64,000 nucleotides of DNA. Source: Heptranchias perlo. Its lineage: Eukaryota. Within the stretch, counting starts at the first letter, position 1; the number at the start of each line of letters is the position of its first letter. Both the position numbers and the translations under genes were made by a program. Shown piece by piece: positions 6,581 through 51,340 of this stretch. The notes under the pieces are model-generated. The model ran no database searches and was not told the origin of the DNA. It saw only the letters and a list, made by a program, of their open reading frames with translations. The DNA is taken from assembly GCF_035084215.1 (NCBI RefSeq), contig NC_090360.1, positions 13,144,001 through 13,208,000 on the forward strand. The letters are read 5' to 3'.

Positions 6581-7026
6581 CTTAGTCAACAAAAAATATA
6601 TTAAACAACCAAAATAGACAGATTCTTTGTAACTGATTTTAACAGGTCTGAATGGAGAGACTGCTTTACTTAATTTACTCCTTACTTTAGTTGGTGAACA
6701 TCATTTAGCTTCAGCAGAAGCATAATGAATTTAGTGAACCGTTCGTTAAACTTTTACACCATTAATTGAAGTTGCTGGTCCACTTTTACGTAAGCCACAT
6801 ATAAAAATTTATTTCTATGTGAAGCGTAAAACTTCACACAGTTATGGTTTACCTTTATCTGAGCATAAAGTACTTTTTCCAACAATGGATTGTTTTTGTT
6901 ATTCCTGCAAGTAATGCTTTATTTTAACTTACTACGTTAACATGAACTGTAGATATTTTAAGCACCGATGTTATTCAACTGGATAGCAGTAAACACTTAA
7001 AACAAGTTTCTTTTTTTCTTGCCCAG

Positions 7027-9455
7027 ATAAAGCAAATACTGATATCTCTTCAAAAGAGAACACTGAGGAAAACTCTGTTGATTCTGAGCCTATAGCAAGA
7101 GTTGTGAAACGCAAAAAAGGTTGGCCAAAAGGAGTGAAGCGTGGTCCAGCTAAATGGAGACGCAAAGCCGAGAATAAAACTGGTTTTAAACTCAACCTGT
7201 ACACGCCACCAGAAACTCCACTGGAGCCTGATCAACCGGTCACAACAGAGGAGAAGCAAGTAGTGACTGAGCAGCAAATTGTAGTTGAGAAGCACAATGA
7301 TACAGCCCCTGCAATAACAGAGGAGGATGAACTTGAAAATGAAGAAAAACCAGAATCCCCAGATAAATCTACCTGCAGATTGAGTGAGGAGAAGGAACCC
7401 GTGGAAGAACCAACTGAAAAAGAGCATGACCACGTCAATGGAGTTCCTGAAGATGAAACTGATAATCTTGAACATGAGGAAGAGGAAGATGAGGAAGAGG
7501 AAGCAAATCAAAATGAGGATCATGATGCAGATGATGAAGATGACAGTCACATGGAATGTACTGAGATGGAAAAAGAAAATCCAGAGGAAGTATTGAAAGA
7601 AGAGTCCCAAAGCCAAGAACCATTCTTAGAGTTAAATGTTCCAAGCAATAATACAGAACAGAAGGATGAGATGGATCATAGTGATGACCCTGTGCCAGAT
7701 TCTGATGAAGACCAAAACAATGATCATGAAAGGAATTCAGAGCACATACCAGATTCAGATGAAGATCACACAGATAACCAGAATCATAAGGACAATGGCA
7801 AGCAGACCCCAGAACTAACAGGGGGAAATGTAAATGCAGAACCTGACATAGAGACAGTCCAAGCTGTTCAATCATTAACACAAGAAAATGGTGAACAAGA
7901 AAATAGCGAGCAAGTAAATACATACCAGGACTGTGCAGAAACCATGGAGGCGTGTAGGAACCTGCAGAGTTACACACATACAGAGCAGAGCCCACAAATG
8001 ACCACAATGGATGACTGCCATCAGTCTGACCATAGCAGTCCTCTTTCATCTGTTCATTCTCATCCTAGCCAATCAGTTCGTTCTGTAAACAGCCCTAGTG
8101 TGCCTCCCATTGAGAACAATTATGCTCAGATCAGCCCTGATCAGAGTGGTATTTCTGCACCATCTTTACAGAATGTAGAGACCAGTCCAATGATGGATGT
8201 CCCTTCAGTTTCTGACCATTCACAACAGGTTGTGGACAGTGGCTTCAGTGACCTGGGCAGCATTGAGAGCACAACTGAAAACTATGAGAATCCAAGCAGC
8301 TATGATTCGACTATGGGAAGCAGCATTTGTGGCAACAACTCGACACAGAATAGTTGCTCTTACAGTAACATATCTTCCAGTAGCCTTACTCAAAGTAGTT
8401 GTGCAGTGACTCAGCAGATGACTAACATTAATGGTAGTTGTAGTATGATGCAGCAAAATAGTATCAACTCTCCACCAAACTGCAGTGTTAAATCTCCCCA
8501 AAATTGTATAATTGAAAGACCTCCCAGCAACAATCAACAGCAGCAACTGTCACAGTGCAGCATGACCACCAGTTTCGCACCAGCAATACAAATGACAGAC
8601 ATTCCAGAAACTGGTAACTCAACCATCAGCATCTATGAAAGGATGGGCCAGGGTGACTTTGGAACTGGGAGTTATTCCCAGCCATCTGCCAATTTCAGCC
8701 TGGCCAAACTACAACAGCTAACTAATACAATCATGGATCATCCATTGCCTTATAATCATTCAGCTGCTGTTACTTCCTATGCAACAAGTGTCTCCCTGTC
8801 CAACCCACACACGGGCCTTGTCCAACTTCCACAGTCGCCTCATTCCTTATCTGGGGGAGCCCAAGCACAACCTACAATGACTCCCCCACCTAATCTTACT
8901 CCTCCACCAATGAATCTGGCATCACCACTTCTACAGCGCAGTATGGCAGCCCCAAATATTGGAATCCCTCATACCCAAAGATTGCCAACACGAATGGCAG
9001 CCAAAGGCCACGTTGCCATACGTTCCAAGTCGGTGCCCGTACCACCTGCTGCTGCTCACCAGCAGCAGATCTATAGCCGTGCCTCACCAGCTGTGGCCAT
9101 GCAGCCAGCACCGCGGCCTCTGACCATGCAGCGGGGCATGAACATGGGTCTAATGCCAGCACCAACTTATAATGTCAATTCTATGAATATGAATACATTG
9201 AATGCTATGAATGGGTACAGGATGACTCAATCCATGATGAACAGTGGTTACCATGGAAATCCTGCATACATGAATCAAACTGCCCAGTACCCCATGCAAA
9301 TGCAAATGAGCATGATGGGAAGTCAGCCATACACCCAGCAACCGATGCAAAGTACTCCACATGGTAACATGATGTACACGCCCCCAGCTCACTACAGTCA
9401 CATCAACACTGGCATGTCTAAACAGCCTTTGAACGGCTCCTACATGAGGAGGTAG
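7027..9455 (+). CDS. KAT6B: KAT6B terminal coding exon (acidic region plus Ser/Met-rich transactivation domain)
   Basis: Acceptor tttttttcttgcccag|7027 in phase 1, in frame with ORF 7104-9455. Contains [62 protein letters not shown] and the C-terminus LNGSYMRR*, all characteristic of KAT6B. Confidence 0.97.
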
Positions 9456-37626: not shown

Positions 37627-39275
37627 AATCATAGAATGGATACAGCACTGAAGGAGGCAATTTGGCTCGTCGAGCCCGTGCCGGCTCTCTGCAAGTCCCA
37701 CTCCCTCGCCCTTTCCCTGTAGCCCTGCAAATTTTTTCCTTTCAAGTACTTATCCAGTTCCCTTTTGAAAGCCACGATTGAATCTGCCTCCTCCACCCCC
37801 CTCGGGCAGTGCATTCCAGATCCTAACCACTCGCTGCGTAAAAAAGTTTTCCCTCATGTCACCTTTGGTTCTTTTGCCAATCACCTTAAATCTGTGTCCT
37901 CTGGTTCTCGACTCTTCCGCCAATGGGACAGTTTCTCTCTATCTACTTTGTCTAGACCCTTCATGATTTTGAACACTTCTATCAAATCTCCTCTCAACCT
38001 TCTCTGCTCTAAGGAGAACAACCCCAGCTTCTCCAGTCTATCCACGTAACTGAAGTCCTTCATCACTGGAACCATTCTAGTAAATCTTTTCTGCACCCTC
38101 TCTAGGGCCTTCACATCCTTCCTAAAGTGCGGTGCCCAGAACTGGACACAATATCCAGTGTTTTATAAAGGTTCATCATAATTTCCTTGCTTTTGTACTC
38201 TATAACCCTATTTATAAAGCCCTGGATCCTGTTTGCTTTTTTGACCGCTTTCTCAACCTGCCCTGCCACCTTCAACGAATTGTTCACATATGCCCCCAGG
38301 TCTCTTTGTCCCTGCACCCCCTTTAGAGATGTACCCTTTAGTTTATATTGCCTTTCCTCATTCTTCCTACCAAAATGTATCACTTCGCACTTCTCTGCAT
38401 TAAATTTCGTTCACCAGCCTGTCTATGTCCTCTTGAAGTCTATCACTATCCTCCTCACTGTTCACTACACTTCCAAGTTTTGTGTCATCTGCAAATTTTG
38501 AAGTTGTGCCCTGTACACCCAAGTCCAAGTCATTAATATCTATCAAGGTCCTAGTACCGACCCCTGGGGAAGACCACTGTGTACCTTCCTCCAGCCTGAA
38601 AAACAACCTTCACCTCTACTCTCTGTTTCCTGTCACATAGCCAATTTCCTATCCATGCTGCCACTGCCCCTTTTGTTCTATGGGCTTCAATTTTGCTAAC
38701 AAGTCTATTATGTGGCTCTTTATCAAATGCCTTTTGAAAGTCCATATACACCACATCAACCACATTGCCCTCATCAACCCTCTCTGTTACCTCATCAAAA
38801 AACTCAATCAAGTTAGTTAAACCCTATTTGCCTTTAACAAATCCATGCTGGCTTTCCTTAATTAAACCACACTTGTCCAAGTGACTGTTAATTTTGTCCC
38901 GGATTATCGTTTCTAAAGTTTCTCCACCACCGAGGTTAAACTAACTGGCCTGTAGTTGCTGGGTTTATCCTTACACCCTTTTTGAACAAGGGTGTAACAT
39001 TTGCAATTCTCCAGTCCTTTGGCACCACCCCTGTATCTAAGGATGATTAGAAGATTATGGCCAGTACCTCCGTAATTTCCACCCTTCCCTCAGCAACCTA
39101 GGATGCATCCCACCCAGACCTGGTGACTTATCTACTTTAAGTACAGCCAGCCTTTCTAGTACCTCCTCTTTATCAATTTTTAGCCCATCCAGTATCTCAA
39201 CTTCCTCTTTTACTGTGACTTTGGCAGCATTTTCTTCCTTGGTAAAGACAGATGCAAAGTGTTCATTTAGTACCT
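37627..39275 (-). mobile_element. CR1 LINE, RT through 3' end, frameshifted
   Basis: ORFs 38551-38811 (YMDFQKAFD), 38400-38606 (KFADDTKL), 38111-38383 and 37881-38114. Confidence 0.95.
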
Positions 39276-47800: not shown

Positions 47801-47932
47801 GCTTTTAAAACAAAGCATAACACAGAAGACTGAAATAAATTCTACTTTAAGTTTACAGTTTAATTTAAAACAGGTGAAAAATGCTGCAAAGGGGCAGTGT
47901 CTGCATCCACTCAAGCCTCATGGTACTCTTTC

Positions 47933-50900
47933 ATAGAATTATAGAAAGGTTACAGCGCAAAAGGAGGCCATTCGGCCCATCGAGTCCATGCTGGCTCTAT
48001 GCAAGAGTAATCCAGCTAGTCCCATTCCCCCACCCTATCCCTGTACCCCTGCAATTTTTTCCTTTCAAGTACTTATCCAGTTCCCTTTTGATTGAATCTG
48101 CCTCCACCACCCCCTCAGTGCATTCCAGATCCTAACCACTCACTTTGTAAAAAAAATGTTTCCTCATATCACCTTTGGTACTTTTGCCAATCACCTTAAA
48201 TCTTTGTCCTCTGGTTCTTGACCCTTCCGCCAAAGGGAACAGTTTCTCTCTAACTACTCTGTCTAGACCCTTCATGATTTTGAATACCTCTATTAAATCC
48301 CCTCGCAACCGTCTCTATTCCAAGGAGAACAACCCCAGCTTCTCCAGTCTATCCCCATAACTAGAGTCCCTCATCCCTGGAATCATTCCAGTAAATCTCT
48401 TCTGCACCCTCTCTAAGGCCTTCACATCATTCCTAAAGTGCGGTGCCCAGAACTGGACACAATACTCCAGTTGTGGCCGAACCAATGTTTTATTAAGGTT
48501 CATCATGACTTCTATACTTTTGTACTCTATGCCTCTATTTATAAAGCCCAGGATCCTGTATGCTTTTTTAACCCCTTTCTCAATCTGCCCTGCCACTTCC
48601 AACCATTTGTGCACATCTACCCCCAGATCTCTCTGTTCCTGTACACCTTTTAGAGTTGTGCCCTCTAGTTTATATTGCCTCTTCTCGCTCTTCCTACTGA
48701 AATGTATCACTTTGCATTTTTCTGCGTTAAATTTCATCTGCCACGTGTCCGACCATGCCACCAGCCTGTCTATATCCTCTTGAAGTTTATCACTATCCTC
48801 CTCACTGTTTACTACCCTCCCAAGTTTTGTGTCATCTGCAAATTTTGAAATTGTGCCCTGTACACCTGTACAAGTCATTAATATATATTAAGAAAAGCAG
48901 TGGTCCCAGCCATGACCCCTGGGGAACACCACTTTACACCTTCCTCCAGTCCGAAAAAAAAACATTAACCACTATTCTTTGTTTCCTGTCATTTAGCCAA
49001 TTCTGTATCCATGTTGCTACTGCCCCCTTTATTCCATGGGCCGCAATCTTGATGATAAGCCTATCATGCGACACTTTATCAAACGCCTTTTGAAAGTCCA
49101 TACACACCACATCAACTGCATTGCCCTCATCCACCCTCTCTGTTACCTCATCAAAAAACTCTATCAGGTTAGTTAAACACGATTTGCCTTTAACAAATCT
49201 GTGCTGGCTTTCCCTAATCAATCCACACTCATCCAAGTGAGTGCTAATTCTGTCCTGCATTATCGTTTCTAAAAGTTTCTCCACCACTGACTGGCCTGTA
49301 GTTGCTGGGTTTATCTTAACACCCTTTTTTGAACTGGAAAAGCTGCAAGCTCAAACCAACCGCCTCAACCGGCCAATGGAAAGCGGCGCTTCGCATGCTG
49401 AGAAGAGAAATGAAAACTAGAACCTCTCCTCCGCTCCATGTTCACATCGATGAAACGACTCCATGTCGTGTCCATGTTAAGAAGAGTCCAAAGCCAGCAA
49501 AGAAAGTCCAGCAAAAGCTGAAAGGAGCATGGGAATGTGGGAACCTACGAGCAACCAACAAGGTGAAGACCAAAGCCCCAGTGGTGTAACATTTGCAATT
49601 CTCCAGTCCTCTGGCACCACCCTCGTATCTAAGGATGATTGGAAGATTATGGCCAGTACCTCCGCAATTTTCACACTTACTTCCCTCAGCAACCTAGGAT
49701 GCATCCCATCCGGACCGGGTGACTTATCTACTTTAAGTACAGCCAGCCTTTCTAGTACCTCCTCTTTATCAATTTTTAGCCCATCCACTATCTCAACTAT
49801 ATCTTCCTTTACTGAGACTCTGGCAGCATATTTTTCCTTGGTAAAGACGGATGCAAAGAACTCATTTAGTACCTCGGCCCCACCCCTCCTCTTACTACCC
49901 ATTTACTGTTTACATGCTTGGAGAAGACTTTTGGATTCCCTTTTATGTTAGCCGCCAGTCTATTCTCATACTCTCTCTTTGCCCCTCTTATTTCCTTTTT
50001 CACTTCTCCTCTGAACTTTCTATATTCTGCCTGGTTCTCACTTGTGTTATCAACCTGACATCTGTCATACGCCCCTTTTTTCTGTTTCATCTTACTCCCA
50101 ATCTCTTTTGTCATTCAGGGAGCTCTGGCTTTAGTTGCCCTACCTTTCTGCCTCATGGGAATGTGCCTGGACTGTACCCGAACCATCTCCTCTTTAAAGG
50201 CTGCCCACTGTTCAATTACAGTTTTGCCTGCCAATCTTTGATTCCAATTGAATATTTTTACTTTAGAGTGGTCCGTGTCCTTTTCCATAGCTATTCTAAA
50301 CCTTATGATCGCTGCTCCCTAAAAGGTCCCCCACTGACACTTGCTCCACTTGGCCCACCTCATTCCCCAGAACCAGCAATGCCTCCTTCCTCGTTAGGCC
50401 AGAAATATACAGGTCAAGAAAGTTATCCTGAACACATTTCAAAAATTCCTCCCCCTTTTTTCCCTTTATATTATTATTGTTATCCCAGTCTATATTGGGA
50501 TAGTTGAAGTCCCCCATTATCACTACTCTATGGTTCTTGCACCTCTCTGTAATTTCCCTGCAAATTTGCTCCTCTATATCCTTCCCACTAGTTGGTGGCC
50601 TATAGAATACACCCAGTAGTGTAATGGCACCTCTTTTATTTCTTAACTCTAACCAAATAGATTCTGTCCTTGACCCCTCCAGGACATCCTCTCTCTCCAA
50701 TAGTGCAATATTCTCCTTAATCAATACTGCAACCCCCGCCTCCCCACTCCTTTCTTTCCTTCCCTATCTTTCCTGAACACCTTGTATCCAGAAATATTTA
50801 GTACCCAATCCTGCCGTTTTTTGAGCCAGGTCTCCACTATCGCCACGACATCATATTCTCATGTGGCTATTTGCGCCTGCAGCTCACCAACCTTGTTTAT

Positions 50901-51340
50901 CATGCTTCGTGCGTTCACACACATGCACTGCAAAAAAACAGTCCTAGACTTTCTTTTACTCTCTCTTAGTCTGATCCTACCTAATACTGCACTATTCCTT
51001 GCTCTAGTGCTATCTTTCTCTCCCAATCCTTTGTGCCCCTTGTTTCTCCTTTCCAGTGCTACATCCAGGAGGTGCCCATCCCCCTGCCAAATTAGTTTTA
51101 AACACCCCCCCCCCCACACACACACAGCACCAGCAAACCGCCCCACGAGGACAAATTGGTCCCAGCTCTGTTGAGGTGCAACCCGTCTGGGCTGTACAGG
51201 TCCCACCTCCCCCAGAACCGGTCCCAATGCCCCAGGAATCTAAAGCCCTCCCTCCTGCACCTTCTCTCCAGCCAGGCATTCATCTGTTCTATCCTCCTAT
51301 TTCCTACACTCGCTAGCGCGTGTCACCGGGAGTAATCCTT
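47933..51340 (-). mobile_element. Long CR1 LINE: ORF1 SGNH-esterase end, APE endonuclease, RT and 3' UTR (degenerate, interrupted at 49335-49582)
   Basis: NAWLERRCRREGFRFLGHWDRFWGRWDLYSPDGLHLN (ORF1); NARS, GVFYRPP, MGDFNYP, SDH (endonuclease); MDFQKAFD and KFADD (RT). Confidence 0.95.
49335..49582 (+). pseudogene. ODF2: Inserted fragment of ODF2/cenexin 5' sequence (5' UTR plus the first ~57 codons)
   Basis: ATG at 49410 gives MKTRTSPPLHVHIDETTPCRVHVKKSPKP...NLRATNKVKTKAP versus recalled human cenexin MKDRSSTPPLHVHVDENTPVHVHIKKLPKP...NVRRSVRVKTKVP. It interrupts the CR1 sequence tttgaac[aag]ggtgtaac, which is intact at ~38981-38998. Confidence 0.8.

What the first reader, a model, noticed from the sequence alone, without database searches (positions are those of the whole stretch)
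49335..49582. 5' fragment of ODF2/cenexin captured inside a CR1 element, without poly(A) or TSD
Seen: 248 bp of non-CR1 sequence replaces 3 nt (aag) of the CR1 string tttgaac-aag-ggtgtaac, which is intact in the copy at ~38981. It is open throughout, antisense to the CR1, and has no A-tail or flanking duplication. Known from recall: the peptide matches the cenexin/ODF2 N-terminus (PPLHVHVDENTPVHVHIKK...VKTKVP), which spans more than one exon in human, and ODF2 is abundant in the male germ line. Inferred: a spliced mRNA 5' end was captured by RNA/cDNA-templated double-strand-break repair or by RT template switching, unlike normal 3'-anchored retrocopies. Local oddities (TPCRVHV for TPVHVHV, ccagtgg for ccatgg) suggest error-prone copying or an assembly artefact.
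Basis: partly seen in the sequence, partly recalled or inferred. Interest (0 to 1): 0.8.

Follow-up and report, generated by a model that had tools for sequence, protein, structure and literature searches.

The report
Messenger-RNA scrap patched into shark retrotransposon
A short DNA copy of the front end of a sperm-tail and centriole gene's messenger RNA was pasted long ago into an old jumping-gene copy in a shark, most likely as a patch over a DNA break; this is known from mammals and is a clean but functionless example.

Summary
Confirmed. Window 49335-49582 is a single-copy, spliced 5' fragment of ODF2/cenexin mRNA: 63 nt of exon 1 (5' UTR and ATG), all of exon 2 and 69 nt of exon 3. It joins both GT-AG junctions of the gene on another contig. 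It lies antisense in ORF2 of a 5'-truncated CR1 LINE, with 1-3 nt of CR1 lost, 2-nt microhomology plus one extra base at the right junction, no poly(A) and no TSD. None of 30 sister sites carries it. It is not an assembly artefact: it differs from the gene at 17 sites, several by CpG decay, and DNA read contigs carry its own alleles and left junction at single-copy depth. Its age cannot be told apart from the host's. Best reading: an mRNA-derived cDNA patch of a break in the CR1 (class-2 templated insertion, endonuclease-independent type). A first-strand template switch is excluded by orientation. The left junction sits at the loop edge of the family's only strong hairpin, but that site is no break hotspot (5 vs 8). 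No sign of function. New member of a known kind.

The parts
47931..49334 (-). 3' part of host CR1 LINE (3' UTR and RT half of ORF2)
   Evidence: BLAST to sister copies starts about 47931; RVT_1 hits; 4.1% non-CpG divergence from the family majority over 47926-50050 without the insert
49335..49397 (+). ODF2 exon 1, last 63 nt (5' UTR and ATG at 49395-49397)
   Evidence: matches C34:34110329-34110391, followed in the gene by donor GTGAGG
49398..49511 (+). ODF2 exon 2, complete (114 nt), with a compensating +1/-1 change at 49463-49466
   Evidence: matches C34:34116287-34116400, acceptor AG and donor GT in the gene
49512..49580 (+). ODF2 exon 3, first 69 nt; 3'-truncated, no tail
   Evidence: matches C34:34117016-34117084
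49581..49584 (.). Right junction: one extra base, then T and GG; the GG is shared by ODF2 exon 3 and the CR1 (2-nt microhomology, likely primer end of the cDNA)
   Evidence: GG starts at 5% of positions in six spliced ODF2 exons, so it is not significant alone
49583..51338 (-). 5' part of host CR1 (endonuclease half of ORF2 and end of ORF1 esterase); 5'-truncated; private 49-bp and 51-bp deletions between 6-7 nt repeats
49317..49334 (.). Left arm and loop of the family's 10-bp inverted repeat; the insert starts right after the last loop base and replaces the start of the right arm
38981..38998 (.). Empty-site reference in a second CR1 copy in the window

Best explanation
A break arose in an already integrated CR1 copy in a germ-line or early embryo cell. 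The right-hand DNA end paired through about 2 nt with an internal position of spliced ODF2 mRNA, or with a ready-made ODF2 cDNA. A reverse transcriptase (most likely a LINE ORF2 protein acting in trans without its endonuclease; polymerase theta is a recalled alternative) copied 248 nt to at or near the 5' end of the message. The free cDNA end was joined to the left-hand DNA end by end joining, with 1-3 nt of CR1 lost. The patch was inherited and has since decayed neutrally. Shown: spliced RNA origin, single copy, the empty site, junction anatomy, real DNA, old age.
For: Two precise exon junctions. The CR1 resumes in register with 1-3 nt lost and no TSD or tail, the class-2 TSIP pattern (PMC5110952) and the RMDR pattern (PMC4516963). 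Antisense orientation is allowed for a break patch and not for a first-strand switch. Only 4 matches in the genome, self plus three exons, 4 of 4 candidates scored. The host shows other private deletions between short repeats, the signature of microhomology end joining. A second TSD-less foreign insertion (69 nt, L021) lies in about 70 kb of CR1 sequence scanned, so such patches occur in this family. The insert reaches 24 nt further 5' than a 3797-nt spliced ODF2 contig. Coding changes look neutral: about 4-5 amino-acid-changing and 2 silent differences, counted by hand.
Against: Insert and host ages cannot be separated: 6 of 222 non-CpG sites vs 73 of 1779, p=0.37; CpG decay 5 of 13 vs 17 of 38, p=0.76 (the insert counts were assigned by hand and the direction of two changes is untested). 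Capture during integration of the CR1 is therefore open. The microhomology is within chance. The left junction lies exactly at the loop edge of the family's only strong hairpin, which covers 0.9% of the element; a random break does not predict this. The transcription start is not mapped.
Confidence: 0.65

Rival explanations
1. Capture during integration of this CR1. First-strand cDNA folds into the 10-bp hairpin. The polymerase making the second strand stalls 7 nt into the stem, switches through GG onto ODF2 mRNA, copies to its 5' end and re-enters at the first unpaired loop base. This also gives antisense orientation.
For: The left junction is exactly at the loop/stem border and the right one is inside the stem. 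It is the only perfect inverted repeat with arms of 8 bp or more in a 1950-nt majority row, and the host's 5' 1.76 kb has none. Folding z -2.6 and -2.3, with 4 and 5 of 200 shuffles as good. Ages are compatible. L018 has an inverted templated duplication at the same hairpin.
Against: It needs two switches and survival of a 248-nt heteroduplex loop. Breaks at this exact base are not enriched: 5 genome-wide vs 8 at a control site 35 nt away, with the two 24-mers intact in 17 and 18 of 29 copies. The hairpin was noticed after the fact. One literature search for such CR1 chimeras listed 2 unrelated papers.
Confidence: 0.14
2. Endonuclease-started target-primed reverse transcription with internal priming (a tailless retrocopy) by a CR1, L1 or Tx1 protein, ending in a small target-site deletion instead of a duplication.
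For: 3' truncation with the 5' end kept is the tailless pattern (PMC5322556, passages). Short or absent TSDs are recalled for CR1-clade insertions. A T-run followed by GA, which resembles an L1 endonuclease site (recalled), lies 4 nt from the left junction.
Against: Tailless retropseudogenes were defined with TSDs and none is present. The T-run is on the wrong strand to prime this cDNA. A normal insertion into a sister copy (L018, 394 nt) does have a 6-nt duplication.
Confidence: 0.12
3. An ordinary longer ODF2 retrocopy was later trimmed by deletion, or a piece of a retrocopy lying elsewhere was copied in as DNA.
For: Cartilaginous fishes hold 14,081 annotated retrocopies (bioRxiv 10.64898/2026.06.26.734816, passages), and the host suffers microhomology deletions.
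Against: A deletion would have to remove about 3.5 kb, the tail and the TSD and stop within 3 nt of the original site. No other ODF2 retrocopy was seen: of 23 protein matches 17 are the gene's exons, 1 is this insert and 5 are a distant paralog on C9 (only 55 of 534 candidates scored, stricter first look, so a floor).
Confidence: 0.06
4. Assembly or polishing chimera.
For: The right junction is not among the pieces listed (the table is cut), and the DNA run may be the individual that was assembled.
Against: 14 substitutions and 3 one-base indels from the gene, several by CpG decay. Read contigs match the insert with 0 differences over 49305-49426 (depth 32.6) and 49402-49539 (depth 38.8), beside a separate contig with the gene's alleles (depth 37.1).
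Confidence: 0.01

Closest known systems
Class 2 templated sequence insertions / TSIPs (Onozawa and Aplan, PMC5110952; parts 1-2 of 4 read)
   Same: Patch from a distant locus with the donor intact, no TSD, no poly(A), microdeletion, microhomology and a non-templated base; spliced cDNAs are among known donors; size within the 73-414 bp reported for experimental cases.
   Different: Found in a shark, old and apparently homozygous rather than a known polymorphism; the target is a LINE whose sister copies give the empty site.
[quoted passage not shown] 2015, PMC4516963; passages)
   Same: Partial spliced mRNA (Pcnt, Inadl there; ODF2 here), truncated, one in reverse orientation with 3-bp microhomology, no TSD.
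   Different: There the break was made by Cas9 in mouse zygotes; here it is natural and only inferred.
Non-classical (endonuclease-independent) L1 insertions (Sen et al. 2007, PMC1920257; passages)
   Same: 3' truncation, no TSD, no poly(A), target-site deletion.
   Different: The cargo is a cellular mRNA, not L1 RNA; the deletion (1-3 nt) is smaller than the 5-14,534 bp reported.
Tailless retropseudogenes (PMC5322556; passages)
   Same: 5' end kept, 3' end cut at an internal priming site, no tail.
   Different: Those carry TSDs and are ascribed to therian L1; this has a deletion.
LTR-mediated chimeric retrocopies (Tan et al. 2016, PMC5131818; passages)
   Same: Partial mRNA flanked on both sides by one retroelement.
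   Different: The host is a non-LTR element, is interrupted with almost nothing replaced, the insert is antisense, and microsimilarity is 2 nt and 0 nt against a median of 6 bp.

Membership tests
Processed (RNA-derived) retrocopy | Continuous alignment across exon-exon junctions of a distant parent gene | tested here: met
   Two junctions, GT-AG introns removed, parent on another contig; criterion as in PMC13320880 methods passage
Classical TPRT retrocopy / class 1 TSIP | Poly(A) tail and 3'-anchored structure | tested here: not met
   Ends inside exon 3 of a gene with at least 19 coding exon matches; no tail
Classical TPRT retrocopy / class 1 TSIP | Target-site duplication of 5 bp or more | tested here: not met
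   No duplication; 1-3 nt lost against 29 of 30 sister sites
Class 2 TSIP / RMDR / endonuclease-independent insertion | Template from a distant locus with donor intact | tested here: met
   ODF2 gene complete on C34
Class 2 TSIP / RMDR / endonuclease-independent insertion | No TSD, no poly(A), microdeletion at the target | tested here: met
Class 2 TSIP / RMDR / endonuclease-independent insertion | Microhomology or non-templated bases at the junctions | tested here: inconclusive
   2-nt overlap plus one extra base on the right, none clear on the left; GG occurs at 5% of positions
Class 2 TSIP / RMDR / endonuclease-independent insertion | Pre-existing double-strand break; empty orthologous allele | not testable with these tools
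   No relative's genome is held for this window; only paralogous empty sites were seen
TSIP (polymorphism) | Segregates in the population | tested here: inconclusive
   One individual only; depth equal to the single-copy gene suggests both alleles carry it
Tailless retropseudogene | 3' truncation with the 5' end kept | tested here: met
   exact transcription start not mapped
Tailless retropseudogene | Flanking TSD | tested here: not met
LTR-mediated chimeric retrocopy | Flanked by an LTR retrotransposon with internal part replaced | tested here: not met
   Host is an esterase-endonuclease-RT LINE; at most 3 nt replaced
CR1 transduction (propagated chimera) | Several copies with the same insert | tested here: not met
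   One copy only, 4 of 4 candidates scored

The most novel reading that the evidence does not exclude
The insert is a fossil of a hairpin-triggered double template switch during second-strand synthesis of a CR1 LINE: from its own folded cDNA onto a host mRNA, to the cap end, and back at the loop. Stringent-type LINEs, which do not take mRNAs by their poly(A), could then still make antisense, tailless 5' retrocopies nested in their own new copies. A genome-wide survey would find a class of such inserts at structured sites and would give fossil evidence that the LINE protein makes the second strand in vivo.
Probability: 0.12. Interest if true: 0.65.

Novelty: new member of a known kind. Interest (0 to 1): 0.33.

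Why it matters
It shows that RNA-templated, tail-less patching of germ-line DNA, described in human polymorphisms and in edited mouse zygotes, also left a heritable trace in a shark. The pre-insertion site can be read to the base from sister CR1 copies, which is rare for an old insertion. It suggests a cheap survey: LINE copies interrupted by spliced mRNA would tell how many of the many shark retrocopies are made without poly(A) priming. Pipelines that expect 3'-anchored copies or filter repeat-overlapping hits may miss them. The single locus has no evident function: promoterless, 64 codons, decaying neutrally.

Tried and rejected
Hairpin as a general break hotspot: not supported at the exact base, 5 vs 8 matches. 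Of the 5, three are deletions, one runs into another CR1-type sequence and one is a small local change. L047 has the same 3-nt loss without an insert but shares only 1 of 40 host-specific variants, so it is an independent event and not the pre-insertion allele. First-strand template switch: rejected on orientation. Propagated chimera: rejected. TSD of the host element: best flank matches are 6 nt and not adjacent to both ends, so chance. A-to-I editing of the captured RNA: three A-to-G, one T-to-C and two G-to-A non-CpG differences give no clear bias. Pfam on the insert: only a chance hit at E=0.11 below the cut-off. Run search: no RNA holder listed on record; this says nothing about expression. 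Organism C DNA (about 55% read) gave only exon-wise matches among the listed pieces and no cover at 49341-49371; a hole proves nothing about an empty site. Absolute dating: at the epaulette-shark rate of 7e-10 per generation (PMC10587355, passages) 2.7% means tens of millions of generations, too loose to use. Earlier findings of the scan: 0 in three look-ups. Literature: nine searches answered; no title or abstract start listed described a shark or CR1-nested case. Most subscription papers and bioRxiv supplements are not searchable, so the VGP retrocopy tables may already list this locus.

Full report
Setting. The window is G000:C39:13144001-13208000 of a 3.25-Gb genome. The best protein hit of the insert is labelled ODF2 of Heptranchias perlo, on a contig of the same length as C34, and most of its exons match C34 at 95-100%. 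The genome is therefore very probably this shark. The host element lies in a tandem cluster of DUSP13/26/DUPD1-like phosphatase genes on the minus strand, about 0.8 kb upstream of a coding exon at about 47.1 kb.

Observation. The 248 nt at 49335-49582 sit between TTTGAAC and GGTGTAAC, and the uninterrupted string occurs at 38981. The host spans about 47931-51338 on the minus strand, with esterase, endonuclease and RT domains and a truncated 5' end. A search with the left flank scored 40 of 5569 candidates and returned 29 other copies as loci. Of these 29 plus the 38981 copy, 29 of 30 continue with the family sequence, one breaks off, and none has the insert. There is no tail and no flank duplication.

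Source. A DNA search gave four matches, 4 of 4 candidates scored: the insert itself and three pieces on C34. They are the last 63 nt of exon 1, all 114 nt of exon 2 and the first 69 nt of exon 3 of ODF2, with donors GTGAGG and GTAATC and acceptors ending in AG. The template was spliced RNA or its cDNA. A 3797-nt contig of a run guessed to be RNA follows the insert over both junctions from 49359 to 49580, carries the gene's alleles and runs on; a second organism gives a 196-nt spliced contig. The insert reaches 24 nt further 5' than the longer contig, into the CpG-rich start of the gene. It probably ends at or near the transcription start, but contigs cannot show a start. The protein search found no other ODF2 retrocopy: 17 exons, this insert and 5 matches to a distant paralog on C9, with 55 of 534 candidates scored.

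Real and old. The insert differs from the gene by 14 substitutions and 3 one-base indels; an 18th column is an end-of-alignment artefact and was dropped. Four changes are CpG decays and one adjacent pair is best read as decay of one CpG in each lineage. In a DNA run, contigs match 49305-49426 (30 nt of CR1 plus 92 of insert, one base short of the tool's 31-nt bridging rule) and 49402-49539 with 0 differences, at depths 32.6 and 38.8. The gene's exon 2 shows 37.1. So the insert is single-copy and probably on both alleles. This run may be the assembled individual, and the right junction is not among the listed pieces. At 49432, 49446, 49468 and 49481 three organisms agree against the insert; at 49497 the insert keeps the base of organisms B and C and the gene has changed since. 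The host is 4.1% from the family majority at non-CpG sites (73 of 1779; median of 32 other copies 3.7%; star-like tree). The insert is about 2.7% from its template (6 of 222, interval 1.0-5.8%, counted by hand). Neither this nor CpG decay separates the two ages (p=0.37 and 0.76).

Junctions. Right: ODF2 continues TGG and the CR1 resumes GG, so 2 nt are shared and one base is extra; an equally short reading shares one A and loses 1 nt. GG starts at 5% of exon positions, so this is compatible with priming but is not proof. Left: no clear overlap; the first base differs from the gene. The cDNA must have grown from right to left on the minus strand if it was primed in place. CR1 first-strand cDNA would grow left to right on the plus strand and could only copy an mRNA into the same sense as the CR1, so a first-strand switch is excluded (inference from the TPRT model).

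Hairpin. In the family the site is a perfect 10-bp inverted repeat with an 8-nt loop, the only one with arms of 8 bp or more in the 1950-nt majority row, with folding z of -2.6 and -2.3. It covers 0.9% of the element. The left junction follows the last loop base. One sister copy has an inverted templated duplication there and one breaks off there. Against this, copies that leave the family sequence at exactly this base number 5, and at a control site 8, with similar conservation of the two 24-mers. The coincidence is a lead only.

Background. The host has private deletions of 49 and 51 bp between 6-7 nt repeats. In about 70 kb of CR1-matching sequence in 45 loci, two other foreign insertions were seen: one with a 6-nt duplication and one of 69 nt without. 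End-joining scars and insertions are common in this family; the mRNA donor is the unusual part.

Mechanism. Best (0.65): a cDNA patch of a break in an integrated CR1. Rivals: a switch during second-strand synthesis at the hairpin (0.14), endonuclease-started internal priming with a small deletion (0.12), a trimmed or copied ordinary retrocopy (0.06), artefact (0.01). The enzyme is not identified.

Comparison with known systems. It works like class 2 TSIPs, defined by no TSD, no poly(A) and end-joining features, with spliced cDNAs among the donors (PMC5110952, parts 1-2 of 4 read). It also works like capture of spliced Pcnt and Inadl mRNA at Cas9 breaks in mouse zygotes (PMC4516963, passages) and like non-classical L1 insertions (PMC1920257, passages). 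It fails the TSD test for tailless retropseudogenes (PMC5322556, passages) and the LTR test for chimeric retrocopies (PMC5131818, passages). Retrocopies are numerous in cartilaginous fishes and are ascribed to CR1 or Tx1 in non-mammals (bioRxiv 10.64898/2026.06.26.734816, passages; PMC13320880, passages). Stringent 3' recognition by many LINEs is reviewed in PMC3747384 (passages). Nine literature searches listed no shark or CR1-nested case by title or abstract start; supplements were not seen.

Verdict. A real, well-resolved, old and probably neutral insertion; a new member of a known kind, in a lineage where I found no report of it. Interest 0.33.

Noticed in passing
window 6993-9452 (+): 820-aa open frame without a Pfam hit; acidic, serine-rich and methionine-rich C-terminal parts look like the last exon of KAT6B (name recalled, not from a call; the atlas hit at 0.76 is a lead only).
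   Followed up: partly
window 18.5-58.8 kb (-) and L014: Tandem cluster of at least four DUSP13/26/DUPD1-like genes; exons at about 18.6, 23.2, 26.6, 34.1, 39.7, 44.0, 45.7, 47.1, 58.7 kb and beyond the window.
   Followed up: partly
window 49376-49420 (+); L006 exon 1-2: A 14-codon upstream ORF overlaps the ODF2 start codon in both the insert and the spliced gene; it may regulate translation of ODF2.
   Followed up: no
L018, at the family hairpin: Short inverted templated duplication at the same inverted repeat; also a 394-nt insertion with a 6-nt duplication further on.
   Followed up: partly
L021: 69-nt foreign insertion in a CR1 copy with 1 nt lost and no duplication, source not identified.
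   Followed up: no
L047: CR1 copy with the same 3-nt loss at this site but no insert; independent of the host.
   Followed up: yes
window about 49873 and 50250: Private 49-bp and 51-bp deletions in the host CR1 between 6-nt and 7-nt direct repeats.
   Followed up: partly
window 49457 / ODF2 exon 2 on C34: Read contigs of organism A show A where both the assembled gene and the insert have G: a silent allele difference in the gene.
   Followed up: no
G000:C9:13391727-13517103 (-): Five exon-sized matches at 44-56% identity to ODF2, probably the ODF2L paralog (name recalled).
   Followed up: no
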